A program made the translations under genes and the position numbers. DNA of 64,000 nt from positions 29,038 to 93,037 of the forward strand of contig CAZVXP010000021.1 of assembly GCA_964630855.1 (NCBI GenBank), in the 5' to 3' direction. Position 1 is the stretch's first letter. The number at the start of each line of letters is the position of its first letter. The notes below the pieces were generated by a model. The model saw only the letters and a program-made list of their open reading frames with translations, searched no databases and had not been told where the DNA came from. This stretch comes from an uncultured Thermodesulfobacteriota bacterium. Lineage in GTDB: Bacteria; Desulfobacterota; Thermodesulfobacteria; Thermodesulfobacteriales; Thermodesulfatatoraceae. Shown piece by piece: positions 4,404 to 34,198 of this stretch.

Positions 4404-6410
4404 ATGCGTTTACCTCGCCGCTGGCCTTTGGAATTGCGGATTATCTTTCCCTTTGGCTTTTTCTTGGGGATGGCCTTTTTTATCACCAATTATTTGACCC
4501 TTTCAGAGCTTAATACCTATCGGGAAGTTTTACTCAAAGAGGAACTTCAACTCGGTCGAGAAAATGTGCACTATTTTGAAGCTATTGCTCAGTATAATAT
4601 GCATTTAGCAGGTACTTTAGTCAAAAACCCTCGTTTTTTAGAATCTTTGATCTCTAATAAGGAACCAGAGGCTTTTCTTAATCGTCAGGCAATTCTTTTA
4701 AGTCGAGAAGCTCCGTTCCCTTATTTCGTATCTTTTAGGCAGTTAGAAAACTCGTCCGAGGCTTTTTGGCAACTTGAAAGACAAGGAGATGACTTATTTC
4801 TCTCTGGAGCAGCTCCCGTTATTTCTGGGGAGAAGTTGTTGGGTTTTTTGGTAGTTTCTTGCCGTCTAAAAGATGTTATCCATAGATTAGAACATATTGC
4901 ACATTTTCAAGCGGGTCTTCTCCTTCTAGATTCTGATAAAAGGCTTAAAATTCTCAAAGAAGTTCCGTTTCCCGTCGAAGAGAAGCTTCGGAAAAATCTT
5001 CAATATTTTTTACGTCAAAATCAAGCATTGAAAATAGGCCATCAGGTTGTTTTACTTTTCCCCTTACGCGATGCCAAAGGTGAAGTGATAGGTTTTTTTG
5101 TAAGGAGTACATTTTCTCCTTCTTTTTATTTTTCTCCTTATAATCTCCTCAAAAACAACATTTTTCCTACAGCGCTTCTTTTTGGTTTAGCTTTAATAGT
5201 CGCCATATTTTTTACGCGTCAATATCTTTGCGAACCACTGCGCAAATTTAATGATCAATTAAAAGAAATTTCTCGGGTTATAGGAAAGCGTTTGCGTCAA
5301 CCTGTAGAAGAATCTGTTCTAAAGGTAAGTGGTGATGATGAATTAGCTAATTTAGCTCGAACCATTAATGAACTCGTACGTGAACTTGACGAGCTAGCTT
5401 CATTTCGACAGGCTATTGAAACAGATGAAACTCCTCAGGAAATCTATAGTAGATTAGCTCGAGTAATTAAAAAGAAATTTGATTTTTCAAATTTTGTCAT
5501 TTTTGAAGTTTCTAATAGTCAAAATCGTATAGAACCTGTAATTGTTGAGCCATCTTGCCTTTTAGAAGAATGTTGTTATCAAGAAATAGAAGGCCGTCCG
5601 GCTCTTTGTCGAGTACTTCGGAGGGCCATTAAAGCTTCTTCTCTTCATTTTACAGAAACATGTGAATACTTTCGTGACCCTGATCTTAATTATTTATGTT
5701 TACCTCTTTATACTGGCGGTCATGTTATAGGTATTATTCATTTTCTTCTTCCTATAACTTTCCGTTTGGAAGAAAAATATCGTACAATTCTTAACCGAAT
5801 AGAGGCATATCTTCAGGAGGCAGCTCCTGTGCTGGAAGCTAAACGTTTTGCTCAAAGTTTGAGAGAAATTTCATTGCGAGACACTCTTACTGGTCTTTAT
5901 AATAGACGTATTTTGGATGATTTGGTTCCACAAATTGCAGCTGGTGTTGTTCGTAGAGATAGTATTATGGGCGTCTTGATGATAGATATCGATCATTTTA
6001 AGATAATTAATGATACATATGGTCATTCTTTTGGAGATCGTATTCTTAAATCTGTTGCTAGCATGGTGCAAGATGAGCTAAGATCTAGTGATTTAGCTAT
6101 CCGTTTTGGTGGAGAAGAGTTTCTTTGTCTTCTAGTCGATGTTGAAGAAGGTATAAGCTTTGCTATAGCTGAAAGAATTCGAGAGAAAATAGAAACAAAT
6201 TCTTTTGTCTTTGAAGGTCAGTTAGCAGCGGTAACAGTCTCTATTGGTGTAGCAGAATTTCCCCTTGACGACCGCAATCTTTGGAATGTCATCAGTTTTG
6301 CAGATCTAGCCCTTTACAGGGCTAAGCGGCAAGGTCGTAACCAATGCGTTCGTTTCGATCGGACGTTTTTGTTGGAAGAGAAGCCTAGAGTTTTAAATAG
6401 AAGACCTTGA
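4404..6410 (+). CDS. membrane sensor diguanylate cyclase (2 TM + periplasmic domain, HAMP, GAF-like, GGDEF)
   Basis: The C-terminal GGDEF domain has DIDHFKIINDTYGHSFGD, I-site RSSD, an active-site GGEEF (RFGGEEFLCLL) and ADLALYRAKRQGRN. The N-terminal half has two TM helices flanking about 230 aa. Confidence 0.9.
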   Translation: MRLPRRWPLELRIIFPFGFFLGMAFFITNYLTLSELNTYREVLLKEELQLGRENVHYFEAIAQYNMHLAGTLVKNPRFLESLISNKEPEAFLNRQAILLSREAPFPYFVSFRQLENSSEAFWQLERQGDDLFLSGAAPVISGEKLLGFLVVSCRLKDVIHRLEHIAHFQAGLLLLDSDKRLKILKEVPFPVEEKLRKNLQYFLRQNQALKIGHQVVLLFPLRDAKGEVIGFFVRSTFSPSFYFSPYNLLKNNIFPTALLFGLALIVAIFFTRQYLCEPLRKFNDQLKEISRVIGKRLRQPVEESVLKVSGDDELANLARTINELVRELDELASFRQAIETDETPQEIYSRLARVIKKKFDFSNFVIFEVSNSQNRIEPVIVEPSCLLEECCYQEIEGRPALCRVLRRAIKASSLHFTETCEYFRDPDLNYLCLPLYTGGHVIGIIHFLLPITFRLEEKYRTILNRIEAYLQEAAPVLEAKRFAQSLREISLRDTLTGLYNRRILDDLVPQIAAGVVRRDSIMGVLMIDIDHFKIINDTYGHSFGDRILKSVASMVQDELRSSDLAIRFGGEEFLCLLVDVEEGISFAIAERIREKIETNSFVFEGQLAAVTVSIGVAEFPLDDRNLWNVISFADLALYRAKRQGRNQCVRFDRTFLLEEKPRVLNRRP

Positions 6411-7803: not shown

Positions 7804-7813
7804 AATCCATTTT

Positions 7814-23301: not shown

Positions 23302-23625
23302 ATGGCCTACAAAAGGCTTACCATCTACGTCGATGAGGACGATCATTTTGGGAAGCGTCCCCTTTACGAAGAAATTCTCCACTTTTTGCGTCAAAATGGT
23401 ATCCGCGGGGCAACAGTCTTTAAAGGCGTCTTGGGCTGGGGACCGGATGGAGTGGTGCACACCGTGCGTCTCTTACGCGCCAGCGGTAACCTTCCCCTAA
23501 AGATCGAAGTCATAGAAACAGAAGAGAAGGTGGCCGCTATCCTGCCGGAATTGCAAAAACGCCTGCTAAAAGGTCTTCTCACTCTGGAAGATGTGGAAGT
23601 GTTAAAAGGCTATCCCGAGAGTTGA
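23302..23625 (+). CDS. DUF190 domain protein (frequent crcB neighbour)
   Basis: 107 aa with RPLYEEILHFLRQNGIRGATVFKGVLGWG, which is characteristic of DUF190. GGAGG lies upstream of the ATG. Confidence 0.8.
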   Translation: MAYKRLTIYVDEDDHFGKRPLYEEILHFLRQNGIRGATVFKGVLGWGPDGVVHTVRLLRASGNLPLKIEVIETEEKVAAILPELQKRLLKGLLTLEDVEVLKGYPES

Positions 23626-23681
23626 CGCTCCCGGTGGGTTGTGAAAAGGTCTAAAACCATAGTTCCCCAAAGGAGGCCAAA

Positions 23682-26600
23682 ATGCTCGCCAGGATCGAAG
23701 TGGCCCTCAAGCCTGAACTCCGCGATGCCCTGGGTGAAAAAACAGCCCGGCGGATGCGTGAGGACCTGGGACTTTCTGTCTCTTCCTGCCGAACCATCCG
23801 CGTCTACCTGGTAGAGGCTGAGATAAACGAAGGAGAGCTTGAGGCCTTTGCCTCCGGCCCCCTTTGTGATCCGGTGACCCAGCTTTACGCTGTAAGAAAG
23901 CCACTGGCCCCGCTTTTCGGTTTTGATTGGCTTATCCAGGTCGGGTTCCGGCCCGGGGTCACCGACAACGAGGGCAAGGTGGCCAGAGAAGCGCTTGAAC
24001 TCCTGCTTGGTCGAAAACTCTCAGAAGAAGAAAACGTTTATTCTCTCATGCAATATTTGGTGAAGGGGGAACTTTCCAGAGAAGATGCAGAACGAGCCGC
24101 CCGGGAGCTTCTGGCCAACGAGCTTATCGAGCGTTTTTGGATCATTTCACCTTCAGAGTTTGATGAAGAGCGTGGTCTTGAAATCCCTCCTCCCAAAGTG
24201 ACCGAGGAACCCGAGATTCGGGTGGAGCTTTTCGATCTTTCGACCCTCTCAGATGAAGAGTTGCTCAAGCTTTCGCGAGAAAGGGTGCTGGCCCTGAATC
24301 TTCGAGAAATGCAAACCATTCGAGACTATTTCAAGCGGCCGGAATTTCTGGATCTCCGGCGCCAACACGGCCTCGACCATCGGATCACAGACGTAGAGCT
24401 CGAATGTCTGGCCCAGACCTGGTCCGAACACTGCAAACACAAGATCTTCAACGCCAAAATTACTTACACCGACGAAACCACCGGTAAGACCGAGGTCATA
24501 GACAGTCTCTTCAGGACCTATATTCGGAGGGCCACGGATGAGATCCGGCAGGCCAAGGGAGAAAGGGATTTTTGTCTTTCGGTCTTCGTGGACAACGCCG
24601 GTGTCATTCGTCTGAACGAGAAATGGAACGTGGCCATGAAGGTGGAGACTCACAACAGCCCCTCAGCCCTTGATCCCTACGGTGGTGCGCTCACCGGCAT
24701 CGTGGGAGTGAATCGGGATCCTTTCGGCACAGGCAAGGGCTGCCTCCTGGTCTTTAACACCGACGTTTTCTGTTTCGCTCCCCCCGATTGGGACAGACCC
24801 CTGCCTCCCAGGCTCCTTCATCCCAAGCGTATCTTCGAAGGGGTACGTGAGGGGGTGGAGCACGGTGGCAACAAGAGCGGTATCCCTACGGTCAATGGCT
24901 CCATCGTCTTTGACTCACGTTATCTTGGTAAACCTTTAGTTTTTTGTGGCACGGGTGGGATCATGCCGGCCGAAGTCTGCGGGGAACCCAGCTGGAAAAA
25001 AGGGGCCCGCCCCGGGGATCTGGTGGTTATGGTGGGGGGAAGGATCGGAAAGGACGGCATTCACGGAGCTACCTTTTCTTCGGAGGAGCTTCACGAAGGA
25101 AGCCCTGCCACGGCGGTCCAGATCGGAGACCCCATCACCCAGAAGAAGATGTTCGACTTCTTGCTTGTGGCCAGGGACGAGTGCCTCTACACCTCCATCA
25201 CGGACAACGGCGCGGGGGGACTTTCTTCTTCCGTGGGTGAGATGGCCCGAGAGTCGGGTGGGGCGGAACTCGACCTTGAGAAGGCCCCCCTCAAATACCA
25301 CGGCTTACAGCCTTGGGAAATCTTGGTTTCGGAAAGCCAGGAGCGAATGACGCTAGCGGTGCCGCCGGAACATATCGACCGTTTTCTTGAGCTTGCCAGA
25401 AAGATGGACGTGGAAGCCACGGTACTTGGAAAGTTTACGGATTCGGGCTTTTTCCACGTGCGCTACGAGGGGAAAACAGTGGCCTTACTTCCGCTTGACT
25501 TTCTGCACGAAGGGGTGCCTCAGCTTGAGCTGCGGGCCATCTGGAGCCCCCCGGAACACGAAGAACCGGCTCTTCCAGTGCCGGAAGATTGCGGTGCCGT
25601 GCTCAAGGAGCTCCTTTCTCGCTACAACGTCTGTTCCAAGGAATACGTGGTGCGCCAGTATGACCACGAAGTGCAAGGGGGAAGCGTCATCAAGCCGCTG
25701 GTGGGGGTAAGAGATGATGGCCCAAGTGACGCGGCCGTGCTGCGGCCTGATCTTGAGCGTCTGGACGGCCTGGTGGTGGCCCACGGAATTTGTCCCAAAT
25801 ATTCCGATCTCGATACTTACTGGATGGTAATGAACGCGGTGGATGAAGCGGTTCGAAATGCAGTCTGTGTGGGGGCAGATCTCGAGCATATGGCAGGCCT
25901 TGATAATTTCTGCTGGTGTGACCCTATTCAGAGCGAAAAGACCCCGGATGGGCACTACAAATTGGCCCAGCTGGTGCGAGCCAACCAGGCCCTTTATGAG
26001 ATCACCACGGCTTACGGGGTCCCCTGTATTTCGGGGAAAGACTCCATGAAGAATGATTATCTGGCTGTAGGTCTTGGTTTGAGCCCGGAAAACAACCCTT
26101 ATGGGACGGGGGTGGTGCTTCCTGACGGAAGTCTCAAGATCTCCGTTCCCCCCACCCTCCTCTTTTCCGTTATCGCCCGAATCCCTGATGTCAGGCGCGC
26201 GATGACCATGGACGTCAAGCGTCCCGGAGATCTCATCTACCTTTTGGGAATGACCAGGGACGAGCTCGGAGGATCAGAGTATTTTCGAGCTCGTGGTTTC
26301 GTAGGGCAGAAGGTCCCGCAGGTGCAACCCGAGGCGGCTCGAGATCGCTATCTTCGCCTGAGGGAAGCCATTTATTACGATCTAGTTTCCGCAGCTCACG
26401 ATTGCTCAGATGGCGGTCTTGGTGTAGCTTTGGCAGAAATGGCCTTTGCCGGGGGTCTGGGGGTGCTGGTTGATCTTTCTGCTGTGCCTTACGAAGGGGA
26501 AGCACGGCCCGATTTCGTGCTTTTTTCTGAATCCGCAAGCCGTATTGTGGTCACGGTGCCGCGAGAGAAACAGCGGGAGTTTGAAAAGCTCTTTTCGGGT

Positions 26601-26732
26601 TCGGTTTACGCGCTCATCGGAGAGGTGGTGGCGGAGCCGGTCCTTATAGTTCGAAACGGTCGCGGAGAGACCCTCATAGAAGAGAACATCTTTGACCTCA
26701 AAGCCGCCTGGCAAAAACCCTTAAATTGGTAG
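23682..26732 (+). CDS. purL: phosphoribosylformylglycinamidine synthase, long PurL form with a PurS-like N-terminal domain and no glutaminase domain
   Basis: Motifs CKHKIFNA, VETHNSPSALDPYGGALTGIVGVNRD, GDPITQKK and ITDNGAGGLSSSVGEM, with duplicated AIR-synthase-like halves. AGGAGG lies upstream. Confidence 0.85.
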   Translation: MLARIEVALKPELRDALGEKTARRMREDLGLSVSSCRTIRVYLVEAEINEGELEAFASGPLCDPVTQLYAVRKPLAPLFGFDWLIQVGFRPGVTDNEGKVAREALELLLGRKLSEEENVYSLMQYLVKGELSREDAERAARELLANELIERFWIISPSEFDEERGLEIPPPKVTEEPEIRVELFDLSTLSDEELLKLSRERVLALNLREMQTIRDYFKRPEFLDLRRQHGLDHRITDVELECLAQTWSEHCKHKIFNAKITYTDETTGKTEVIDSLFRTYIRRATDEIRQAKGERDFCLSVFVDNAGVIRLNEKWNVAMKVETHNSPSALDPYGGALTGIVGVNRDPFGTGKGCLLVFNTDVFCFAPPDWDRPLPPRLLHPKRIFEGVREGVEHGGNKSGIPTVNGSIVFDSRYLGKPLVFCGTGGIMPAEVCGEPSWKKGARPGDLVVMVGGRIGKDGIHGATFSSEELHEGSPATAVQIGDPITQKKMFDFLLVARDECLYTSITDNGAGGLSSSVGEMARESGGAELDLEKAPLKYHGLQPWEILVSESQERMTLAVPPEHIDRFLELARKMDVEATVLGKFTDSGFFHVRYEGKTVALLPLDFLHEGVPQLELRAIWSPPEHEEPALPVPEDCGAVLKELLSRYNVCSKEYVVRQYDHEVQGGSVIKPLVGVRDDGPSDAAVLRPDLERLDGLVVAHGICPKYSDLDTYWMVMNAVDEAVRNAVCVGADLEHMAGLDNFCWCDPIQSEKTPDGHYKLAQLVRANQALYEITTAYGVPCISGKDSMKNDYLAVGLGLSPENNPYGTGVVLPDGSLKISVPPTLLFSVIARIPDVRRAMTMDVKRPGDLIYLLGMTRDELGGSEYFRARGFVGQKVPQVQPEAARDRYLRLREAIYYDLVSAAHDCSDGGLGVALAEMAFAGGLGVLVDLSAVPYEGEARPDFVLFSESASRIVVTVPREKQREFEKLFSGSVYALIGEVVAEPVLIVRNGRGETLIEENIFDLKAAWQKPLNW

Positions 26733-26741
26733 GTAGCCCAG

Positions 26742-28100
26742 ATGAAGATTATGGTTTTTGGTCGACCGTCGGTTTCTTTTGGCCCGGAGGTTGAAATCGT
26801 TCCTTCGAAAGAAGGAACTTTAGCTGATCTTTATCTCATTGGTCCAGAAGAGATGAATCTTCCGAAACTCCTCACCCTGCGTTCCGATCCAGAAAAGGCC
26901 TTATCTCCCGTTTATCTGACGGAATTCACCGAAGATCGGCGACTTCTGGAAGTGGCAGATGGCCTCTGGCGTGGGGAAGAGACTTTGGCAGAAGTGGCCA
27001 AGATAAAGAAACGTCTGTCTTCCTTGCCTGCCCCTTCGGTCCGTCTCTCAGATACGGAGAGGCGTTTAATACTTTTTTTGAGATTTTTGTGGAGTCGCAG
27101 AAGAGAGGAATTTCATCCCTTTCCCGAGGTGAACTCGCGGGTGGGTTATCACTATCCCCTGCTTCAGGGGTTTCTCGGTTTTCAGCCTGGTGAAGAAATA
27201 GATCATCTGGAACAGATGTTCGCCCTGGGGGTGATACGACCTTTTCGACTCATCAATCGAGTGCCCATCTGTCCGCACGATGGACACTATCAGCTTGTCT
27301 TTCGTGAGATCTGTCCTCAGTGTGGATCCCTCAATTTGGAAGAAACGGAACTCTACTACCATTTTGATTGTGGTTATGTTGGACCGCGAGAAGATTTCGT
27401 GAGAGAGGAGATTTTGCGTTGTCCTAAATGTCACCAGGCCTTGCGACATCTGGGCGTGGATTACGAGATACCCAATCGAGTCTTTCGGTGTCTGGATTGT
27501 CATTATCTAGCAGAAGAGCCAAAAGTGGAGGTCTTTTGTCTTCATTGTGAAAGGAGTTTTTCTCTGGAATCCCTGCATTTCTTTGAAGCTCAAATTTATC
27601 AAATTACAGCTTTGGGTTTTCAGTCGGCAGAAGAAGGCCAGCTTCCAGTTCGGGCTGTGGAAGAGATTTTTGATCGTCTTAATCTGGTGAGATGGAATAT
27701 CTTTCAGTTTGTAGTGGACTGGGAGAAGAAGAAATACGAACGTTATCAACACCCTTTTAGTTTGCTTATTGTAAGTTGGGATTGGAAACGCATTGAAGAG
27801 TTGGCAGAGACGTATGGTATTTCAGCTATAAGATCTTATTTCGAAGAAGTAATAGGTTATTTGCGCGAGAGTTTGCGCTCTGTGGATATCGGAACTCGTT
27901 ACGAACTTGGACGTTATCTCTTTTTGTTGCCAGAAACTCCCGGAGATAAAGCTGAAATTGTTCGTCAACGTCTAAGCGAAAAAATCAAACATATCAAAAC
28001 AGATCTTCCCGTCCCTAAAGTTGATTTTCATCTTGAATCCTGCCCTGGAAGATTGGAAAGTATGGATCTTGAAGCCATTTTGCGTGATCTTCAAGCCTAA
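26742..28100 (+). CDS. cytoplasmic zinc-ribbon protein with a degenerate GGDEF domain retaining the RxxD I-site (candidate c-di-GMP receptor)
   Basis: Ten Cys lie in CxxC-type pairs (ICPHDG, CPQCG, CPKCH, CLDCH, CLHCE). The C-terminal domain aligns to GGDEF: FSLLIVSWDWKRIEELAETYG ... RSVD-IGTRY-ELGRY-LFLLPET versus the canonical RxxD-xxxRx-GGDEF-xxxLPxT. Confidence 0.75.
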   Translation: MKIMVFGRPSVSFGPEVEIVPSKEGTLADLYLIGPEEMNLPKLLTLRSDPEKALSPVYLTEFTEDRRLLEVADGLWRGEETLAEVAKIKKRLSSLPAPSVRLSDTERRLILFLRFLWSRRREEFHPFPEVNSRVGYHYPLLQGFLGFQPGEEIDHLEQMFALGVIRPFRLINRVPICPHDGHYQLVFREICPQCGSLNLEETELYYHFDCGYVGPREDFVREEILRCPKCHQALRHLGVDYEIPNRVFRCLDCHYLAEEPKVEVFCLHCERSFSLESLHFFEAQIYQITALGFQSAEEGQLPVRAVEEIFDRLNLVRWNIFQFVVDWEKKKYERYQHPFSLLIVSWDWKRIEELAETYGISAIRSYFEEVIGYLRESLRSVDIGTRYELGRYLFLLPETPGDKAEIVRQRLSEKIKHIKTDLPVPKVDFHLESCPGRLESMDLEAILRDLQA

Positions 28101-29407
28101 TGTTTGATTTTTATTATTTTCTTCAGCAATTAAGTCATTATTTTCGCCATTTTGTCTTAAGTGAACCTTTATTACAAATTCTTATTTTAACTCCTGCTTT
28201 CTGGATTGAATATCCCTGGTATTTCCTTATGACAATACTTCCCTTTTTTCATCGCGTTTTCCCTTCTTATTTGCAGGATTATTCTCCTCCTGTTGGTATC
28301 ATTGTGACAGCTTATCGTGAACCATCGAGTGATATTTTGCGCAATTTGCGAACCATTCTTTATCAGGATTATCCTGGAAAGATAGAGATTGTTTTAATTT
28401 TTGATTCTCCAAGGGATGTTACTTTTTTTAAAAATCTTGAACTTCCTGCACGAAGATTTTTAAAGGTTATAAGTAAATATTATCGTGGTGGCAGGGCATC
28501 ATCTCTGAATTTAGGTCTAAAGCTTCTTTCTCCAGAGATAGAAATTGTGTTAGCTGTTGATGCTGATACTTCTCTTGACTATGACGCTTTGCGTCTTCTT
28601 CTACGTCCTTTTAGCAATCCACGCGTAATAGCGGTCTCGGGAAACATCAAAGTGCGCAATGCCAAGGATAGCATCTGGACAAGATTTCAGCATATCGAAT
28701 ACGTAATTTCCATAGCCCTGGCTCGTTTAACCCTTTCTCGTCTTTTTGGTACGGTGAACAATATCTCTGGAGCTTATGGAGCTTTTAGGCGAGGTTTTTT
28801 GGAGTTGGTTTATGGTTGGGATTCGGGAACGGCGGAAGATCTGGACCTCACGGCAAGACTTAAGATAGCAGCTTCTTTTTATCCAGAGGCTCGCTTTGCT
28901 TTTGTGCCAGAATCCGTGGCACGCACCTCTGTGCCCGAGACTTTTGCCGGACTCATCAAACAGAGACAGCGGTGGGATGGTGATTTGGTGTGGCTCTTTT
29001 TTAAAAAATACCGACGATTTTTGGTGCCGGCTTTTCCTAATTGGAGAGACTTTTTCCTATTTCTTGACCTTAATCTTCTCCTTCAATTTGTTATGCCCGT
29101 GGCCATGTTCGTATATAACGTTTATCTCTGGTTGAATTACGGTCTGGTGGGCCTTTTGGTGGTTGATCTCTTTATCCTTGCCGTTTATGCCTTGTGGACT
29201 TTAGTTATGTATTTTTCTTATCTCTTGACTATTTCCCGAGAACGTGCTTATGATCTCTCATTCTTTGGATATCTCCTGATTTATCCTTTGTATAACTGGA
29301 TTTTGCGGTTACATGCTTTGAAGGCTTATTTTGACGATTGGTGTGGAGATTTGCATAAGTATTCATCATACGTGCCACGATGGGTGTCAAGAAGATTGCC
29401 TTTTTAG
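28100..29407 (+). CDS. processive family-2 glycosyltransferase (membrane-embedded beta-glycan synthase, PgaC/BcsA/NodC-like core, no PilZ)
   Basis: Motifs VTAYRE (UDP-binding D region), AVDADT (DxD), GTAEDLDLTARL (TED) and QRQRWDGD (QxxRW). There are 2 N-terminal and about 3-4 C-terminal TM helices. The ATG overlaps the upstream TAA (TAATG). Confidence 0.85.
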   Translation: MFDFYYFLQQLSHYFRHFVLSEPLLQILILTPAFWIEYPWYFLMTILPFFHRVFPSYLQDYSPPVGIIVTAYREPSSDILRNLRTILYQDYPGKIEIVLIFDSPRDVTFFKNLELPARRFLKVISKYYRGGRASSLNLGLKLLSPEIEIVLAVDADTSLDYDALRLLLRPFSNPRVIAVSGNIKVRNAKDSIWTRFQHIEYVISIALARLTLSRLFGTVNNISGAYGAFRRGFLELVYGWDSGTAEDLDLTARLKIAASFYPEARFAFVPESVARTSVPETFAGLIKQRQRWDGDLVWLFFKKYRRFLVPAFPNWRDFFLFLDLNLLLQFVMPVAMFVYNVYLWLNYGLVGLLVVDLFILAVYALWTLVMYFSYLLTISRERAYDLSFFGYLLIYPLYNWILRLHALKAYFDDWCGDLHKYSSYVPRWVSRRLPF

Positions 29408-31383
29408 TTTTAATTTTTGTCATCTGGGATCATAGCTCTTGGGCTCTAAGATATAAAGAATTGCCCCTTCTTGTAGACGGATCACCTCTCTTCTCTTCCT
29501 ATAGTTACCATCTGAAACAGATTGAATCCCGTATTAAGCGCCTCTCTTTAGAGAATGGCTGGTGGCTTTCTTTGAGTGGCACATATTATTTCAATAATAG
29601 TTATGCTAAAGATGTTATTGGCTATACTTTTGGTTTATCACTCAAGCTTAATAAAGATTTTGGAGGATATAACTCCAATAATTTATTTCAGCGTTTTTTG
29701 GCCCGACTTGACTTTTTGAAAGTTGGTCTTGCTAAAGATGAGAGAAAGGTTTTGCTCCTTTGGCGTCTTCGTTTTCTTTTCATAGAATATCTTCTCCTTG
29801 AACAAAAGATTCAGATTTTGAAAAATCTCGAACAAGAAATTGAAACCATCCTCTCTCCTTTGAGAGAGAGGATGATCCATGGTCTTGAGAAAAGAGAAGA
29901 CGTGGACTTCTATGTTGATCGTCTTTTTCGTTATCGTCTGGAGGAGAACCTTTGTCGCCAACAACAGAAAAAGATAGAAGAACTATTTTCTCTTATATTA
30001 AATTGCGAAGATTGTCGTCCGGAAAAGGAAAATCTTTATTTGACCTTGCCCTTAAACCTTCCCTCTCCGGAAAAGACAGATTTTCTGGAGAAAGTCTCCG
30101 AACAACTGGCTGAGCTTTCGAAAAGACGATTTTATCCTCGTTTCAAATTTTCTCTTGGTGTAGATCGAACCTGGGACGACAATTCTGGCAGTCTCTGGAC
30201 AGGTTTCTCGGTCTCCGTCCCTTTGCACTTTCAGGCCTCGGAAAGGGCTCGCCAGGAGGAGATCTTTGCCCTGTGGCAACGCCTTAAAGCCGAAGAGGAG
30301 CTGCGAGAGACGCGCCTGAAGAACCAGGCCTTTGAACACCTCATGGGTTTGATCTCTTATCAAAGCGATCTTCGTTTCCTGGCTCGCCGCTTTTCCTCCG
30401 CTCTTTTGGAGAAGCCTCCCCCGGTCTTTGATCGTTCCTGGGCCAGGTCCAGGATCAAAGCGTTGGAGATCCTGAAAGATTATTACGACGTTCAGATCCG
30501 GATCTTTGCCTTGTGGGCTTCCTTGGGAGGTGCTTTACAACTTAAGGATTTCCCGGTCTCGCATGACAGAGGTCTATGGGTCGCTTTACCTCCTCGCGAC
30601 TTGGCAGCTTGGTGGTGGGCCAGTGAGCCTTCGGTTTCTCACGTTCGCCAGGTTTCAGATTCTTTAGGGCTTACCCGGCTTTATTTTTCTCTAAACGCTA
30701 AACAGATCGAAGAGTACCTTCAAAAAGGGAATCCGGAACTTTCACGCTTTATTGTCGATCTGTATCAACAGGGAACAGTGACTGAAATCCTCCTCGGAGA
30801 ACCCACTTGGATCTTCCCTCAGGCTCGAAAGAAACTCTTTCAAATTGTCTCTTGGCTGGAAAAACGCCTTTATCCTTTGGTTCAGGTGGTTCATCTCGAT
30901 TTGGAACCCCACGCCCTTTCGGATTTTTCCCGTAACAAAGAAAGATATCTTCGTCTCTATTTGGATACCTTGGCAGAACTTCGAAAAGAAACCCCTATGG
31001 ATCTGATCGTAGATGTTCCTCTTTATTTCTTCAGGGAAAAAATTTCTTGGCAGGGAAAGGAAGCCCTTTTGATTGATCATCTGGTGCCTTTGGTCAACGG
31101 AGTGGTAGTGATGAACTATTTTGGTGATCCTGATCTTTTTGAGCGCTGGGCCAAAAAAGTAGCTCAAATGCTAGAGGCACGAAGCCTCCCTTACTGGATA
31201 GGCCTTTCTCTGGAAAAGGACATCCCCTCTGAAGAGAGTCTCAAAGACCTTTCGGTTGAAGTATTTCGGCAGTTTTTGAGAGAAGAACTCTCACAGATTT
31301 CTCCTTCTTATTTTTTCCGAGGTTTGGCGGTGCAAAATTTCAAGGAGTTAGAGAAATATGCTGCACCTTCGCAGACTCCGTAG
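29380..31383 (+). CDS. secreted two-domain protein: TolC/OEP-like N-terminal half fused to a TIM-barrel glycoside-hydrolase-like C-terminal half (tentative)
   Basis: Signal peptide MGVKKIAFLVLIFVIWDHSSWA. The N-terminal half alternates beta segments (WWLSLSGTYYF, FKFSLGVDRTW, GFSVSVPL) with long helices. The C-terminal half has a beta/alpha periodicity with RLYFSL, EILLGEPTW, VVHLDLEPH, LIVDVP and VVVMNY strands. It overlaps the GT2 gene by 28 nt. Confidence 0.55.
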   Translation: MGVKKIAFLVLIFVIWDHSSWALRYKELPLLVDGSPLFSSYSYHLKQIESRIKRLSLENGWWLSLSGTYYFNNSYAKDVIGYTFGLSLKLNKDFGGYNSNNLFQRFLARLDFLKVGLAKDERKVLLLWRLRFLFIEYLLLEQKIQILKNLEQEIETILSPLRERMIHGLEKREDVDFYVDRLFRYRLEENLCRQQQKKIEELFSLILNCEDCRPEKENLYLTLPLNLPSPEKTDFLEKVSEQLAELSKRRFYPRFKFSLGVDRTWDDNSGSLWTGFSVSVPLHFQASERARQEEIFALWQRLKAEEELRETRLKNQAFEHLMGLISYQSDLRFLARRFSSALLEKPPPVFDRSWARSRIKALEILKDYYDVQIRIFALWASLGGALQLKDFPVSHDRGLWVALPPRDLAAWWWASEPSVSHVRQVSDSLGLTRLYFSLNAKQIEEYLQKGNPELSRFIVDLYQQGTVTEILLGEPTWIFPQARKKLFQIVSWLEKRLYPLVQVVHLDLEPHALSDFSRNKERYLRLYLDTLAELRKETPMDLIVDVPLYFFREKISWQGKEALLIDHLVPLVNGVVVMNYFGDPDLFERWAKKVAQMLEARSLPYWIGLSLEKDIPSEESLKDLSVEVFRQFLREELSQISPSYFFRGLAVQNFKELEKYAAPSQTP

Positions 31384-32341
31384 GCGAATTCCTCTGGGGG
31401 TCCCGGAATCATTACGAGAAGGCCCTAAGCCCAAAAGCCGCCGCGGATACTATCTTCTGGTCCTGTTCTTTTTACTGATAGGTTTGGCCCTTTATTTCTA
31501 TTACTACCATCTCTTGGTAAAGGGCTCGGGGCTGGTAGTCGGGGAGGTATTGGCTATCCGTTCTCCCCTAAAAGGACAGGTGGTTTCAGTACCCGAACTG
31601 GGAAGCGCCTTTCAGATGGGAGATCCTCTCCTTTCACTCAAACCTTATGCCCTCTTCGATGAAATTCCTTACCTTGAAGAAAAGAGAGAGACGCTTGAGG
31701 CCAGTTACGAAGTCTTGAACGCCGAAAGATGGAATCTCTTGCGGGAGAAAGAGACCCTCCAGAAACAACTCTCCGAACTCAATGCCCTGTATCGGCGACG
31801 TTTGGTCACTCTTCCGGAAAAGCTGAGTCTGCTCTCCGCCCTTCGGTCCTTAAACGCCCAAATTTTGAGTTTTGAGCAGGGATTAAAAAGGATAGATCTT
31901 GAGCTTCTGGAGGTAGAGAAAAGATTGGCCGAAGCCAAGAAGAGACAAGAGTCCTATGTATTTCGGGCTCCCGAAAGGGGCTTCGTTTTGGAGAGATTGG
32001 TTAGCCCTGGAAGTCTGGTCTTCCCGGGAGACTATCTCCTTCGTATTTCTTGTGGTCCTCCTCGGTATCTTTTGGTCTATTTTTCCCTAAAAGATGTTCC
32101 GTATATTTATCCGGGCCTGACCGTCAAAGTCCGTCTGGACCGGGGCGTGGTTTTCAAGGGTGTGGTTCGTGATATCTTGAAGGAAACCGCCTACAAGCCT
32201 CCTTATCTTCTGCGCACCTTCGAGAAACGCGCGCTTTCCCTTCAAGTATTGGTGGAGATCCCGGATCTTGAAGAGCCCCAGCTCCTCTTGCAAGAACCCG
32301 TTTGGGTGAGTTTCCGGCGTCCTTTTCCGTGGTTTCATTGA
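31358..32341 (+). CDS. HlyD-family periplasmic adaptor (membrane fusion protein)-like
   Basis: N-terminal basic segment plus a single TM helix (YYLLVLFFLLIGLALYFYYY), split lipoyl-like halves (IRSPLKGQVVSV ... FRAPERGFVLERLVSPGSLVFPGDYLLRI) flanking a coiled coil, and a C-terminal beta-barrel-like region. It overlaps the upstream gene by 26 nt. Confidence 0.7.
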   Translation: MLHLRRLRRRIPLGVPESLREGPKPKSRRGYYLLVLFFLLIGLALYFYYYHLLVKGSGLVVGEVLAIRSPLKGQVVSVPELGSAFQMGDPLLSLKPYALFDEIPYLEEKRETLEASYEVLNAERWNLLREKETLQKQLSELNALYRRRLVTLPEKLSLLSALRSLNAQILSFEQGLKRIDLELLEVEKRLAEAKKRQESYVFRAPERGFVLERLVSPGSLVFPGDYLLRISCGPPRYLLVYFSLKDVPYIYPGLTVKVRLDRGVVFKGVVRDILKETAYKPPYLLRTFEKRALSLQVLVEIPDLEEPQLLLQEPVWVSFRRPFPWFH

Positions 32342-32378
32342 TCTTCCCTTCCCGAGTTTCTCCTGTTAAGAAGGGCTC

Positions 32379-33143
32379 ATGAAGCTGGCCATTTGCGGTA
32401 AGGGAGGCGTGGGAAAATCAACGGTGGCGGCCCTCCTTGTTGAGGCCCTACTCGCTTCGGGGTATCGGGTCCTGGCCATCGATGCTGATCCTAGCCCTCA
32501 TTTGGCACGCCTTCTGGGGGTGCCAGGGGCCGAAGAGATCGTGCCTATTGCCGAGATGAAGGAGCTCCTTCTTGAGCGCGCTCAAAAAGACGGTCCCTTT
32601 TACGTCCTGAACCCCAAGGTGGATGATCTTCCGGCCAGGTTCATGAAAGAAAGAAACGGACTCAAACTCATGGTCCTTGGGGCGGTGCGCGAAGCGGGAG
32701 GCGGTTGCGCCTGCCCGGAACAAACCGTCTTAAGGCGTCTGCTCTCACTTTTGCTCCTTCAGAGCCAGGAGGCGGTAATCGTCGATCTGGAGGCCGGTGT
32801 GGAACCCTTTGGCCGGGCTACGGTTTCAGCCCTGGAGGCAGTTTTGATCGTGGTTCAGCCTTATCGGGGTAGCCTGGAGACCGCCAGGCAAATCCGAAAA
32901 ATGGCCCAGGATCTCGGGGTGAAGCGTGTCTTTTTGGTGGGGAATCTCTTCTCTCAGGAAGAAGACCGTTTGTTCGTGGAAGAGGCCCTTGCTGAAAAAC
33001 TTTTAGGCTATCTTCCCCGGGATGAGGAGTTATCACGGGCCGAACGAATGGGAAAACCTCTTCGGGAGGTGAGGGGGCCCGCCTGGAAAGCGGCTCAAGA
33101 ATTGGCGCGCAAGCTGGAGAAAGAGCTTTCTCATGGAGCTTAA
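32379..33143 (+). CDS. CooC-type MinD/ParA-family NTPase (metallocentre maturation ATPase-like)
   Basis: Deviant Walker A ICGKGGVGKST and a CxC metal motif GGGCACPE. Size and order resemble CooC/AcsF accessory proteins. Confidence 0.75.
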   Translation: MKLAICGKGGVGKSTVAALLVEALLASGYRVLAIDADPSPHLARLLGVPGAEEIVPIAEMKELLLERAQKDGPFYVLNPKVDDLPARFMKERNGLKLMVLGAVREAGGGCACPEQTVLRRLLSLLLLQSQEAVIVDLEAGVEPFGRATVSALEAVLIVVQPYRGSLETARQIRKMAQDLGVKRVFLVGNLFSQEEDRLFVEEALAEKLLGYLPRDEELSRAERMGKPLREVRGPAWKAAQELARKLEKELSHGA

Positions 33144-33975
33144 AGACGTACAAAACCAGCCGGACTTTCGACAGATAGAAATAGATAAAGTTGGCATAAA
33201 AGGCATTCATTATCCCATTTCAGTGTTGGACCGGCGCAAAGGGGTCCAGCACACCGTTGCTACCATCAATATGTACGTGGATCTTCCGCACCATTTTAAG
33301 GGGACCCACATGAGCCGTTTTGTGGAGATCCTCAACGAGTACCGCCATGAAATCCACATGAAGAAGATTCCCCGGATCTTGGAAGAAATGCGCCGGAGAC
33401 TTTCTGCCAAGATGGCCCATCTGGAGATAGAGTTCCCCTTTTTCATGGAAAAAGAGGCCCCGGTTTCTGGAGCGCGGGGTCTGATGGAATACGGTTGTAA
33501 GATCTATGGTTCTTTAGGAGAAGGTTTTCGGGATCTAATGGTAGAGGTTCGGGTGCCGGTGATGACAGTTTGCCCCTGCTCGCAGGAGATCAGCGAGCGG
33601 GGGGCCCATAACCAGCGCGGTTTGGTACGGGTCCGGGTTAGATTCAAAAAATTTATCTGGATCGAAGAGTTAATCGAGATTGTCGAGAAATGTGCTTCTT
33701 CTCCGGTCTATCCTTTGCTCAAGAGACCGGATGAAAAATTCGTTACCGAATGGGCCTATGATCACCCCATGTTCGTGGAAGACGTGGTGCGCGAGGTTTG
33801 TCGCCGCCTCCTCGCCCACCCGGAGATCACCTGGTTTTCGGTGGAAGCGGAAAACTTTGAATCCATTCATGCTCACAATGCATACGCCTTTATCGAAAGG
33901 TCCAAAGAAGATCAGGCAGATTGTTGTTCTTCGACTTCAAGTTCGAGTTCGAAGAAACTCTCACCACAATCATAG
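33133..33975 (+). CDS. folE2: GTP cyclohydrolase FolE2/MptA (type IB)
   Basis: Motifs QNQPDFRQIEIDKVGIKGIHYPI, DLPHHFKGTHMSRF, TVCPCSQEISERGAHNQR and ESIHAHNAYA. The last roughly 25 aa (Ser-rich tail) look like non-conserved read-through into the convergent gene. Confidence 0.9.
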   Translation: MELKDVQNQPDFRQIEIDKVGIKGIHYPISVLDRRKGVQHTVATINMYVDLPHHFKGTHMSRFVEILNEYRHEIHMKKIPRILEEMRRRLSAKMAHLEIEFPFFMEKEAPVSGARGLMEYGCKIYGSLGEGFRDLMVEVRVPVMTVCPCSQEISERGAHNQRGLVRVRVRFKKFIWIEELIEIVEKCASSPVYPLLKRPDEKFVTEWAYDHPMFVEDVVREVCRRLLAHPEITWFSVEAENFESIHAHNAYAFIERSKEDQADCCSSTSSSSSKKLSPQS

Positions 33976-34124
33976 CATTTTACGTCCAGAGTGTTATCAA
34001 ACAAAGAAACGTAAATTTCGTCGCAACCGCAAGCTGGGCAGGGCCCCTCAATCTGCTCCTCGATGACCTTTCTGATCTCCTCCTGAATATCCGCAGGAAT
34101 ATCAGGATCAAAGAAAATCTTCAC
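33912..34124 (-). CDS. small acidic zinc-ribbon protein (CxxC...CxxC), function unknown
   Basis: 70-aa ORF with a GTG start 6 nt after GGAGG. It has CPACGC and CYDCG pairs and its own promoter-like element upstream. Confidence 0.55.
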   Translation of the reverse strand: MKIFFDPDIPADIQEEIRKVIEEQIEGPCPACGCDEIYVSLFDNTLDVKCYDCGESFFELELEVEEQQSA

Positions 34125-34152
34125 GATAACCTCCTCTTTTTAAGCGGCCTGC

Positions 34153-34181
34153 ATAGTAACAATCGGCCTCTATATTGTAAA
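34153..34181 (-). promoter_or_regulatory. sigma70-like promoter for the small zinc-ribbon gene
   Basis: On the minus strand, TTTACA, a 17-nt spacer, then TACTAT, ending about 29 nt upstream of the GTG at 34124. Confidence 0.35.
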
Positions 34182-34198
34182 GCGCACCGCAGGGTTTT

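What the first reader, a model, noticed from the sequence alone, without database searches (positions are those of the whole stretch)
26742..28100. Zinc-ribbon protein with degenerate GGDEF (ELGRY) and precisely positioned RxxD I-site
Seen: LRSVD-IGTRY-ELGRY-LFLLPET lines up residue for residue with the canonical RxxD-x5-GG(D/E)EF-xxxLPxT (compare RSSD-LAIRF-GGEEF-LCLLVD in the active cyclase at 4404-6410 of this window). The metal-binding DxD region is also degenerate (VSWDW versus DIDHF). Upstream are five Cys-containing motifs (ICPHDG, CPQCG, CPKCH, CLDCH, CLHCE).

Inference: the protein is catalytically dead but competent to bind c-di-GMP, with a metal-binding module. That module may relate to the TackOD1-type output domain, but this is recollection only and unverified. 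The stop overlaps the synthase ATG, which argues for stoichiometric co-production.
Basis: partly seen in the sequence, partly recalled or inferred. Interest (0 to 1): 0.7.

Follow-up and report, generated by a model that had tools for sequence, protein, structure and literature searches.

The report
c-di-GMP sensor subunit of polysaccharide synthase
This gene encodes a catalytically dead relative of the enzymes that make the bacterial messenger c-di-GMP; it keeps only the messenger-binding pocket, is fused to a triple zinc-ribbon (TackOD1) domain, and is most likely the signal-sensing subunit of a sugar-polymer export machine found in many phyla, a kind already known from Shewanella MxdA.

Summary
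ORF 26742-28100 (+) encodes a soluble 452-aa protein with three parts: a pseudo-receiver, TackOD1 (Pfam E=3e-48) and a degenerate GGDEF domain. RSVD-x5-ELGRY aligns column for column with RSSD-x5-GGEEF of the window's own cyclase. The stop overlaps the GT2 start (TAATG).

The GGDEF fold is confirmed by a family profile (E=9e-15 to a c-di-GMP-bound GGDEF structure) and by an AlphaFold model (pLDDT 95; TM 0.71 to DosC). Catalytic residues are absent in every aligned relative. Four arginine/aspartate positions (R334, R379, D382, R410) are kept in 42-44 of 45 non-Bacteroidota homologues, but the three arginines are kept in only 0-8 of 33 Bacteroidota ones.

The gene heads a four-gene module: sensor, PgaC/chitin-synthase-like GT2, a TolC-like protein with a glycosidase-like domain, and a HlyD-like adaptor. 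GT2 follows the sensor directly in 69 of 80 species loci.

The literature counterpart is Shewanella mxdABCD, whose MxdA has a degenerate GGDEF domain and binds c-di-GMP. I could not compare sequences with MxdA directly.

Best reading: an I-site c-di-GMP receptor subunit that switches on an exopolysaccharide synthase. Binding and the TackOD1 output step are inferred. It is a new member of a known kind, of moderate interest.

The parts
26742..28100 (+). Gene for the 452-aa REC*-TackOD1-GGDEF* protein (called TG here). Soluble, pI 5.5, no TM segment.
26742..27041 (+). N-terminal pseudo-receiver (aa 1-100). Truncated CheY-like beta/alpha pattern. Gly at the phospho-acceptor position (aa 34). No acidic pair after strand 1.
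   Evidence: Model secondary structure. Weak receiver hits with the family profile: 3lua E=0.057, 8svz E=0.2. Position 34 is Asp in only 33/128 relatives.
27060..27599 (+). TackOD1 domain (aa 107-286): a helical subdomain that looks winged-helix-like, followed by three zinc ribbons.
   Evidence: Pfam PF18551 E=3e-48. Domain model pLDDT 94.7. No PDB neighbour at E<0.001.
27270..27548 (+). Zinc-ligand region, C177 to C269. Inferred sites: C177/D180/C191/C194, H207/C210/C227/C230, C250/C253/C266/C269.
   Evidence: Ligand columns are 122-128/128 Cys in relatives, except column 207, which is Cys in 101 and His in 27. The query has C180->D, C207->H and H206->Y; the C180->D and H206->Y changes occur in only 5 of the 128. 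The grouping into sites is inferred from the CxxC spacing.
27624..28097 (+). Degenerate GGDEF domain (aa 295-452).
   Evidence: Profile vs PDB GGDEF domains E=9.3e-15. Foldseek: DosC 4zve TM 0.71, rmsd 2.9.
27876..27887 (+). I-site RxxD (R379-S-V-D382).
   Evidence: Aligned to RSSD of the window's cyclase and RQSD of 3ign. R 125/128, D 126/128.
27969..27971 (+). R410, the Arg 31 residues after R379 (third I-site residue).
   Evidence: Aligned to the R of (A/C)ERIR in the window's cyclase and in 3ign. 102 R plus 18 K of 128. Equivalence to PleD R390 is from my own knowledge.
27741..27743 (+). R334, a conserved Arg at the end of the first GGDEF helix. Possible secondary I-site.
   Evidence: 123/128. 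43/45 outside Bacteroidota and 0/33 inside. The secondary-site role is inferred.
27903..27917 (+). A-site remnant ELGRY in place of GG(D/E)EF.
28098..28102 (+). TAATG: stop of TG overlapping the start of GT2.
   Evidence: tight spacing recurs across loci
28100..29407 (+). Membrane GT2 synthase, 435 aa. DAD at aa154, EDLD at aa246, QRQRW at aa288. TM segments at both ends. No PilZ or other known c-di-GMP-binding domain detected.
   Evidence: Chitin_synth_2 3.5e-21, Glyco_trans_2_3. PgaC_IcaA 1.3e-35, below cut-off; NodC 1.5e-20..
29380..31383 (+). 667-aa exported protein: TolC-like (OEP) N-terminal part plus a conserved C-terminal glycosidase-like domain with an invariant HLDxEP motif (aa 505-510, nt 30892-30909).
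   Evidence: OEP is weak here (5.7e-4) but 1.5e-16 and 2.2e-15 in orthologues. C-domain profile vs PDB 10yv_A E=5.8e-16 and GH18 chitotriosidases E~0.016.
31358..32341 (+). HlyD-type periplasmic adaptor (membrane fusion protein), 327 aa, with an N-terminal TM anchor.
   Evidence: HlyD_3 3.6e-6. NCBIfam adaptor families..
4404..6410 (+). Context only: an active-type diguanylate cyclase (dCache-HAMP-GAF-GGDEF, GGEEF, RSSD). It shows the organism can make c-di-GMP.

Best explanation
The protein is an MxdA-type c-di-GMP receptor: a regulatory subunit of a synthase-dependent exopolysaccharide machine.

Shown:
- It is a soluble three-part protein: pseudo-receiver, TackOD1 (a helical subdomain plus three zinc ribbons) and a GGDEF-fold domain.
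- The GGDEF domain has lost the catalytic GG(D/E)EF and metal-binding Asp residues. It keeps the allosteric I-site residues (R379, D382, R410) and a further conserved Arg (R334).
- The gene is translationally coupled to a PgaC/NodC/chitin-synthase-like GT2. It sits in a module with a TolC-like protein carrying a glycosidase-like domain and a HlyD-like adaptor. This module is conserved across many phyla.

Inferred:
- When c-di-GMP rises (made, for example, by the dCache-GGDEF cyclase 22 kb upstream), it binds the I-site, probably as an intercalated dimer. This may cross-link two GGDEF* domains through R334.
- The resulting change is passed through TackOD1 and/or the pseudo-receiver to the cytoplasmic face of the GT2. 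That switches on polymerisation, and the polymer leaves through the adaptor and outer-membrane channel.
- The polymer is probably N-acetylhexosamine-based.

TackOD1 is proposed as the docking and output module because it is the part that stays next to the GT2 even in relatives without the receiver and without RxxD.
For: Domains: TackOD1 E=3e-48. GGDEF by family profile E=3.6e-13 and 9.3e-15. AlphaFold model pLDDT 95.2, pTM 0.80, with Foldseek TM 0.59-0.71 and rmsd 2.6-3 A to isolated GGDEF domains.

Dead A-site, live I-site: hmmalign against the window's own cyclase. In 128 non-redundant relatives, R379 is 125, D382 126, T381 105, R410 102 (plus 18 K) and R334 123. At A-site positions 388-392 no residue exceeds 48/128, and none reads GG[DE]EF.

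Phyletic test: outside Bacteroidota (n=45), R334/R379/D382/R410 are kept in 43/43/44/42. Inside Bacteroidota (n=33) the counts are 0/8/30/4. An early census found no diguanylate cyclases in four Bacteroidetes genomes (PMC1183210).

Context: a GT2 homologue starts within 40 nt of the TG stop in 69 of 80 loci, and 45 of these overlap. OEP-like genes are present in 69 loci and HlyD-like genes in 58. A 340-aa relative with no receiver and no RxxD still overlaps a GT2 gene. The GT2 shows no PilZ or other receptor domain.

Literature: in Shewanella oneidensis mxdABCD, MxdA has a degenerate GGDEF domain, binds c-di-GMP, self-interacts, and binds CheY3 and the cyclase PdgA. MxdB is a GT2 needed for three-dimensional biofilm. 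MxdC resembles an efflux pump (PMC7666153, PMC11395469, PMC3409153, PMC3691769). Gammaproteobacterial family members show the same order: TG, GT2, HlyD, then a small unknown gene.
Against: - No binding experiment exists for this protein. Conservation of RxxD/R is indirect evidence.
- Sequence homology to MxdA (SO_4180) itself could not be tested, because no Shewanella sequence was reachable.
- The single-sequence Pfam GGDEF score is just below the curated cut-off.
- The TackOD1 helical part looks winged-helix-like, so a DNA-binding output is not excluded.
- Bacteroidota keep the operon without the arginines, so c-di-GMP is not required by the machine in general.
- About 6 of 80 loci have the gene without a neighbouring GT2.
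- My choice of the GT2 start codon nearest the stop favours short distances.
- The contact between TackOD1 and the GT2 is pure inference.
Confidence: 0.7

Rival explanations
1. A c-di-GMP-responsive transcription factor. The helical, winged-helix-like part of TackOD1 together with the zinc ribbons binds DNA, and c-di-GMP at the I-site controls transcription of the polysaccharide operon rather than the synthase protein.
For: The model shows a three-helix unit followed by a beta-hairpin at aa 104-190. Its pI is 8.6. A TackOD1-Mrr nuclease fusion exists. Galperin et al. compare the Cys pattern with the PriA zinc insert (PMC5847659). Many c-di-GMP effectors are transcription factors (own knowledge).
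Against: No HTH family hit at E<=1. No structural match to any DNA-binding protein at E<0.001. The whole protein is acidic (pI 5.5) and the zinc part has pI 5.4. Only 9 nt separate purL from the gene here, and there is no promoter-like site above chance. The stop/start coupling to the GT2 is conserved across phyla. Archaeal-type TackOD1 genes sit beside pilus ATPase and platform genes, another membrane machine (PMC5847659).
Confidence: 0.12
2. A structural or scaffolding subunit of the synthase that does not sense c-di-GMP. On this reading the conserved RxxD/R residues serve another ligand (for example another guanine nucleotide) or a protein contact.
For: Bacteroidota orthologues keep the gene and its coupling to the GT2 without the arginines, so the protein has a c-di-GMP-independent role. 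A PleD structure with ppGpp alongside c-di-GMP is in the PDB list (9g85). I did not examine where ppGpp binds.
Against: The residues conserved are exactly the I-site set, at the same spacing as in the window's own cyclase and in 3ign, a GGDEF domain crystallised with c-di-GMP. They are lost together in the one phylum reported to lack cyclases. MxdA, the probable counterpart, is reported to bind c-di-GMP.
Confidence: 0.12
3. A working diguanylate cyclase, as NCBI's pipeline names many homologues.
For: Homologues in Aeromonas, Aliivibrio, Agarivorans and Plesiomonas are annotated as 'diguanylate cyclase'.
Against: ELGRY replaces GGEEF, and both Asp of the DxD metal site are gone (S345, K349). 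No aligned relative has GG[DE]EF at the A-site. The upstream DxLTGLxNR region is not conserved.
Confidence: 0.01

Closest known systems
Shewanella oneidensis MxdA and the mxdABCD cluster
   Same: The first gene encodes a protein with a degenerate GGDEF domain that binds c-di-GMP. It is followed by a GT2 (MxdB) and an efflux-pump/HlyD-like protein (MxdC). The cluster is needed for biofilm matrix (PMC3409153, PMC3691769, PMC7666153, PMC11395469). Gammaproteobacterial members of the present family have the same order: TG, GT2, HlyD, small unknown gene.
   Different: In the window the order is TG, GT2, TolC-like/glycosidase fusion, HlyD. The host is an uncultured organism whose closest genome match is a Thermodesulfobacteriaceae MAG, at 50% identity. 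None of the Mxd papers I could read (all open-access) mentions the TackOD1 domain or a distribution beyond Shewanella.
PelD (Pseudomonas Pel), PssE (Listeria Pss) and BcsE (enterobacterial cellulose): degenerate-GGDEF I-site receptors of polysaccharide synthases
   Same: A dead GGDEF domain that keeps RxxD and is encoded in the operon of the synthase it controls. BcsE also carries a degenerate receiver (PMC4125290, PMC7439463, PMC7112168, plus own knowledge).
   Different: None of them has TackOD1. PelD and PssE are membrane-anchored, while this protein is soluble. The partner synthases and export routes differ: here a GT2 with a TolC-like channel and a HlyD-like adaptor.
TackOD1 output domain of archaeal response regulators (PF18551)
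   Same: Full-length match to the Pfam model. A receiver-like domain lies upstream, as in REC-TackOD1. Same CxxC/HxxC pattern (PMC5847659).
   Different: Bacterial host. The receiver is degenerate. A GGDEF* domain is appended. The neighbours are polysaccharide genes, not type IV pilus genes. Two Cys ligands are replaced by Asp and His.
Diguanylate cyclases with product-inhibition I-site (PleD, WspR, 3ign)
   Same: Same fold. RxxD lies 5 residues before the A-site. Arg at +31.
   Different: No catalytic or metal-binding residues, so the I-site cannot serve feedback inhibition.
BgsA/BgsB (mixed-linkage glucan) and Alg8/Alg44 (alginate): GT2 plus HlyD-like adaptor under c-di-GMP control
   Same: A processive GT2 paired with a membrane-fusion-type protein and activated by c-di-GMP (PMC5567048, plus own knowledge).
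   Different: In those systems the receptor is part of the synthase (BgsA C-terminus) or of the adaptor (the PilZ domain of Alg44). Here it is a separate soluble protein.

Membership tests
GGDEF domain (PF00990) fold | Significant match to the family model or to solved GGDEF structures | tested here: met
   The single sequence scores 22.5 bits, below the 23.8 cut-off. Family profiles score E=3.6e-13 and 9.3e-15. Foldseek TM 0.71 and rmsd 2.9 to 4zve. The window's own cyclase scores 8.7e-12 against the family's C-terminal HMM.
Active diguanylate cyclase | GG(D/E)EF active-site motif | tested here: not met
   ELGRY. The positions are unconserved in 128 relatives.
Active diguanylate cyclase | Metal-binding Asp residues of the DxD strand | tested here: not met
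   S345 and K349 lie opposite the two Asp residues.
I-site c-di-GMP receptors with degenerate GGDEF (PelD/PssE/BcsE/PopA type) | RxxD exactly five residues upstream of the A-site position | tested here: met
   R379-S-V-D382, then IGTRY, then ELGRY. R 125/128, D 126/128.
I-site c-di-GMP receptors with degenerate GGDEF (PelD/PssE/BcsE/PopA type) | Third I-site residue: Arg about 31 residues after the RxxD Arg | tested here: met
   R410 aligns with the R of ERIR in the window's cyclase and in 3ign. 102 R plus 18 K of 128.
I-site c-di-GMP receptors with degenerate GGDEF (PelD/PssE/BcsE/PopA type) | Measured c-di-GMP binding that depends on the I-site | not testable with these tools
   Needs purified protein.
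TackOD1 (PF18551) | Match above the curated cut-off over the full model | tested here: met
   164.3 bits against a cut-off of 32; model positions 8-186 of 188.
TackOD1 (PF18551) | Eleven conserved Cys forming five CxxC motifs plus one HxxC motif (PMC5847659) | tested here: inconclusive
   Four CxxC motifs are intact. The first reads CPHD (C180->D). The usual H-C-x-x-C reads Y-H-F-D-C (H207 replaces Cys). Both replacements can still bind zinc. Metal content was not measured.
Receiver (REC) domain | Phospho-acceptor Asp after strand 3 and acidic pair after strand 1 | tested here: not met
   G34 sits at the acceptor position, and the sequence after strand 1 is GRPS. Fold resemblance rests only on weak profile hits (E=0.057) and on the model's secondary-structure pattern.
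Mxd system (Shewanella mxdABCD) | Operon: degenerate-GGDEF protein, then GT2, plus a HlyD/efflux-like protein | tested here: met
   The order here is TG, GT2, OEP fusion, HlyD. Gammaproteobacterial relatives have TG, GT2, HlyD, unknown.
Mxd system (Shewanella mxdABCD) | Sequence homology of the first gene to MxdA (SO_4180) | not testable with these tools
   No Shewanella sequence was reachable. Cluster look-ups, a plasmid search and a primer scan of metagenomes all failed to yield one.
PilZ / MshEN c-di-GMP receptor on the synthase itself | Receptor domain within the GT2 | tested here: not met
   Only GT2-type families hit the 435-aa protein.

The most novel reading that the evidence does not exclude
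TackOD1 may be a general cytoplasmic docking domain for membrane-embedded polymer-export machines: GT2 synthases in bacteria and type IV pilus platforms in archaea. On this reading the TG, GT2, TolC-like/glycosidase and HlyD module is a largely unrecognised, pan-phylum, synthase-dependent exopolysaccharide pathway that exports through a tripartite efflux-type conduit. It would be c-di-GMP-gated in most phyla and secondarily uncoupled from c-di-GMP in Bacteroidota. The TackOD1 fold has no counterpart among solved structures.
Probability: 0.35. Interest if true: 0.7.

Novelty: new member of a known kind. Interest (0 to 1): 0.48.

Why it matters
Degenerate-GGDEF I-site receptors that switch on polysaccharide synthases are an established class, and Shewanella MxdA is already reported to bind c-di-GMP. 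The finding therefore does not open a new category. It does add three things.

1. It gives TackOD1, whose function the describing paper calls obscure, a concrete and testable context: constant, translationally coupled partnership with a GT2 synthase.

2. It shows that the Mxd-type module is widespread.

3. It provides a natural experiment. Bacteroidota kept the machine but lost all three arginines, which points to the residues to mutate. It also suggests how a second-messenger input can be removed from a machine without dismantling it.

It also flags a systematic mis-annotation of these proteins as 'diguanylate cyclase'.

Tried and rejected
- The word-indexed homologue search gave only 14, 15 and 10 hits even with alignments as queries. 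The family size came from the genome scan and the full HMMER search instead.
- Getting an MxdA sequence failed. Two cluster look-ups found Aliivibrio, Aeromonas and Agarivorans members but no Shewanella. Plasmid tblastn found none. The mxd promoter primer from PMC3691769 matched nothing in the metagenome contigs. The Thormann 2006 and Rakshe 2011 papers are not held. The supplements searched had no mxdA primers.
- My recollection that MxdA reads NVDEF found no match in any fetched protein. It remains unverified.
- I guessed that Vibrio fischeri VF_A0476 was the family member. The published primer encodes MLSFIYMS, whereas the Aliivibrio homologue starts MKMESSV. Rejected.
- The gammaproteobacterial fourth gene (255 aa) is not homologous to the C-terminal domain of the TolC-like protein and has no Pfam hit. 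My impression of a GH16-like EIDIE motif in it is unsupported.
- Longer relatives (971 and 752 aa) show no informative extra domain.
- The promoter/terminator scan of 23400-34200 was at chance level.
- The TackOD1-only model found no PDB neighbour, so structure gave no functional lead for that domain.
Full report
**Observation.** The ORF 26742-28100 (+) exists and encodes 452 aa. It starts 9 nt after the stop of a large purL. Its TAA stop shares a base with the ATG of the next ORF (TAATG at 28098-28102). The comparator at 4404-6410 is a genuine dCache-HAMP-GAF-GGDEF cyclase carrying RSSD-LAIRF-GGEEF and DIDHF.

**Domain anatomy.**
- Pfam gives TackOD1 at aa 107-286 with E=3e-48 (164 bits, cut-off 32). 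It gives GGDEF at aa 330-426 with only E=1e-4 (22.5 bits, just under the 23.8 cut-off).
- Profiles built from homologues remove the doubt. They score 3.6e-13 (9 sequences) and 9.3e-15 (128 sequences) against solved GGDEF domains, with the family's RxTD column opposite the RxxD of those cyclases.
- An AlphaFold model built on 128 relatives is confident (pLDDT 95.2, pTM 0.80). Its C-terminal domain superposes on isolated GGDEF domains: DosC 4zve at TM 0.71 and rmsd 2.9 A, 3ign at rmsd 2.8 A.
- The first 100 residues have a shortened CheY-like strand/helix pattern. They give only weak receiver hits (3lua E=0.057). They lack the phospho-acceptor Asp: the query has G34, and only 33 of 128 relatives have Asp there. 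I read this as a pseudo-receiver.
- TackOD1 modelled alone is also confident (pLDDT 94.7): a helical unit followed by a beta-rich region. No solved structure matches it at E<0.001; the best is 0.09.
- The Cys/His ligand columns are 122-128/128 conserved in relatives, except column 207 (Cys 101, His 27). The query has C180->D, C207->H and H206->Y; the C180->D and H206->Y changes occur in only 5 of the 128.
- The protein has no hydrophobic segment and has pI 5.5.

**Dead A-site, conserved I-site.** An HMM alignment with the window's own cyclase gives these pairs:
- S345 and K349 opposite the two Asp of DID;
- ETYGIS opposite DTYGHS;
- RSVD opposite RSSD;
- ELGRY opposite GGEEF;
- R410 opposite the Arg of AERIR, which is 31 residues after the first Arg in both proteins.

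From my own knowledge, this is the spacing of PleD R359/D362/R390. Across 128 non-redundant relatives, R379 is kept in 125, D382 in 126, T381 in 105, R410 in 102 (plus 18 Lys) and R334 in 123. At positions 388-392 no residue exceeds 48/128. No member has GG[DE]EF at the A-site. A catalytically dead domain has no use for feedback inhibition, so this pattern argues that the pocket itself is the function.

**A phyletic control.** I compared the 78 aligned species-representative homologues (two truncated ones set aside).
- The 45 from outside Bacteroidota keep R334, R379, D382 and R410 in 43, 43, 44 and 42 cases.
- The 33 from Bacteroidota keep them in 0, 8, 30 and 4 cases.
- The only two non-Bacteroidota loci lacking R379 are L048 (an unclassified MAG) and L069 (a MAG labelled Kuenenia). 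In the displayed motif segments, L069 is nearly identical to the Fluviicola (Bacteroidota) locus L065.

The three arginines therefore behave as one unit. They are lost together in the phylum for which an early census found no diguanylate cyclases in four genomes (PMC1183210). That census is old and small, so this is supportive rather than decisive.

**Genomic context.**
- The next gene (28100-29407) is a membrane GT2 with DAD, EDLD and QRQRW motifs. Its best family matches are chitin synthase, PgaC/IcaA (well below cut-off) and NodC. It has no PilZ or other receptor domain.
- The 667-aa product of 29380-31383 has a signal-like N-terminus and a TolC-type OEP region. OEP is weak here but scores 1.5e-16 and 2.2e-15 in orthologues.
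- It also has a C-terminal domain of about 260 aa that Pfam does not recognise. A profile of 22 such domains matches PDB 10yv_A ('Putative GH97 from Cellulomonas fimi') at 5.8e-16 and GH18 chitotriosidases at about 0.016. The HLDxEP motif is invariant.
- The fourth gene (31358-32341) is a HlyD-type adaptor with a membrane anchor.

**How widespread the module is.**
The 80 kept come from KSB1, Calditrichota, Desulfobacterota, Planctomycetota, Nitrospinota, Actinomycetota, Gammaproteobacteria and Bacteroidota. The closest is a Thermodesulfobacteriaceae MAG at 50% identity.
- A full HMMER search counted 1112 clusters at 50% identity with E<=1e-30.
- In the 80 loci, a GT2 homologue begins within 40 nt of the TG stop in 69, and 45 of these overlap. 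I chose the in-frame start nearest the stop, which favours short distances.
- OEP-like genes are present in 69 loci and HlyD-like genes in 58.
- The order is TG, GT2, OEP, HlyD in most phyla, and OEP, HlyD, TG, GT2 in Bacteroidota.
- About six loci have an orphan TG gene.
- The window itself is a metagenome contig. The same purL, TG, GT2, 667, 327, ParA-like, folE2 order holds in a 75%-identical relative.

**What TackOD1 tracks.** A 340-aa relative with no receiver and no RxxD still overlaps a GT2 gene. An archaeal-type TackOD1 protein lies directly after a T2SSE ATPase gene and two T2SSF platform genes. This agrees with the original description of TackOD1 in thaumarchaeal pilus loci, where its function was called obscure (PMC5847659). 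One fusion to an Mrr nuclease domain also exists. The common denominator is a membrane polymer-export machine, which is why I propose TackOD1 as a docking and output module. That step is inference.

**Literature counterpart.** In Shewanella oneidensis mxdABCD:
[quoted passage not shown] This comes from Gambari et al. 2019, as cited in PMC7666153 and PMC11395469.
- MxdA self-interacts; the MxdA-MxdA pair is used as a two-hybrid positive control.
- MxdB is a GT2 needed for three-dimensional biofilm, MxdC resembles an efflux pump, and MxdD has no homology (PMC3691769).

Gammaproteobacterial members of the present family show exactly this layout. A Plesiomonas plasmid is annotated 'diguanylate cyclase', 'glycosyltransferase', 'HlyD family efflux transporter periplasmic adaptor subunit'. 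Wastewater contigs carry TG, GT2, adaptor and a 255-aa unknown gene. NCBI and UniRef name homologues in Aliivibrio, Aeromonas and Agarivorans 'diguanylate cyclase' or 'TackOD1 domain-containing metal-binding protein'. I could not obtain an MxdA sequence, so the identification rests on architecture, gene order and the published description. I rate it likely, but it is untested.

**Mechanism and rivals.**
- Most likely (0.7): a soluble I-site c-di-GMP receptor subunit that activates the GT2 post-translationally. The polymer then leaves through the HlyD-like adaptor and the TolC-like channel, and the attached glycosidase-like domain trims or processes it. The GT2 family matches and the GH18-like motif suggest an N-acetylhexosamine polymer; this is inference.
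- Transcription-factor reading (0.12): suggested only by the shape of the helical subdomain. Against it are the absence of any HTH or DNA-binding match, the acidic charge, the 9-nt gap to purL and the conserved translational coupling.
- Scaffold without c-di-GMP sensing (0.12): true for Bacteroidota orthologues, but it fits poorly where the arginine set is intact.
- Active cyclase (0.01): excluded by the sequence.

**Novelty.** The finding is a new member, in a new phylum, of a known kind: degenerate-GGDEF I-site receptors of polysaccharide synthases such as MxdA, PelD, PssE and BcsE. Three points appear under-described in the open-access literature I could search: TackOD1 inside these proteins, the breadth and fixed composition of the module, and the loss of the I-site in Bacteroidota. 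Only one paper in the library mentions TackOD1. Ten papers mention mxdABCD; nine are Shewanella studies and the tenth is a general biofilm review.

Noticed in passing
window 29380-31383 (motif HLDLEP at 30892-30909): The TolC-like outer-membrane protein carries a conserved C-terminal domain of about 260 aa with no Pfam family. Its profile matches PDB 10yv_A ('Putative GH97 from Cellulomonas fimi', E=5.8e-16) and, weakly, GH18 chitotriosidases. Asp and Glu in the HLDxEP motif are invariant. A glycosidase-like domain fused to an outer-membrane channel protein seems unusual.
   Followed up: partly
loci L028-L080 (Bacteroidota subset) versus the other loci: Bacteroidota orthologues keep the gene, the GGDEF-like domain and the coupling to the GT2, but have lost R334 (0/33), R379 (8/33) and R410 (4/33). 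Gene order is also permuted to OEP, HlyD, TG, GT2.
   Followed up: partly
window 4404-6410 and 26742-31383: Third-position GC is much lower in the cyclase (0.245), TG (0.395), GT2 (0.346) and the OEP fusion (0.437) than in flanking housekeeping genes (purL 0.616, ParA-like 0.596). The cause could be old horizontal acquisition or codon usage tuned for low expression. The synteny is nevertheless shared with a 75%-identical relative.
   Followed up: partly
window 32379-33143: A ParA/MinD-type P-loop ATPase with a faint BcsQ-like match lies 38 nt after the adaptor gene, and is kept there in a 75%-identical relative. It might belong to the operon, as BcsQ does in cellulose systems. It was not seen beside the module in the other loci; the only other hits (L020, L022) lie about 7 kb upstream of TG.
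   Followed up: partly
window 26733-26741: Only 9 nt separate the purL stop from the TG start. No promoter-like or terminator-like site above chance lies between 23400 and 34200, so the polysaccharide genes may be co-transcribed with purL.
   Followed up: partly
L081 (Plesiomonas plasmid NZ_CP062197.1) 6779-10479; protein clusters: Public annotation names these catalytically dead proteins 'diguanylate cyclase' in Plesiomonas, Aeromonas, Aliivibrio and Agarivorans. This is a systematic mis-annotation.
   Followed up: yes
L088/L089 5001-5945; L087 1615-6212: TackOD1 also occurs fused to an Mrr-type restriction endonuclease domain (WOR-3 bacterium). As a stand-alone protein it lies directly after a pilus ATPase gene and two platform genes.
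   Followed up: partly
L090 10798-11565: In a gammaproteobacterial-type module, the fourth gene encodes a 255-aa protein with no Pfam hit and no similarity to the OEP C-terminal domain. It sits in the position of Shewanella mxdD. It contains the string NEIDIEM, which reminded me of GH16 active sites, but nothing supports that.
   Followed up: partly
L082 (Aeromonas caviae pKAM345_3, 29 kb, mobilizable) 6653-8035: A family member sits on a small mobilizable plasmid, so the sensor gene can travel horizontally. The record ends about 1 kb after the gene, and I did not check across the origin for a GT2.
   Followed up: no
L067 9824-13636; L053 19-2405: A few homologues are orphans with no adjacent GT2. 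One is next to a PhoB/PhoR pair and one is next to an LPG_synthase_TM-family membrane protein. Their targets are unknown.
   Followed up: partly
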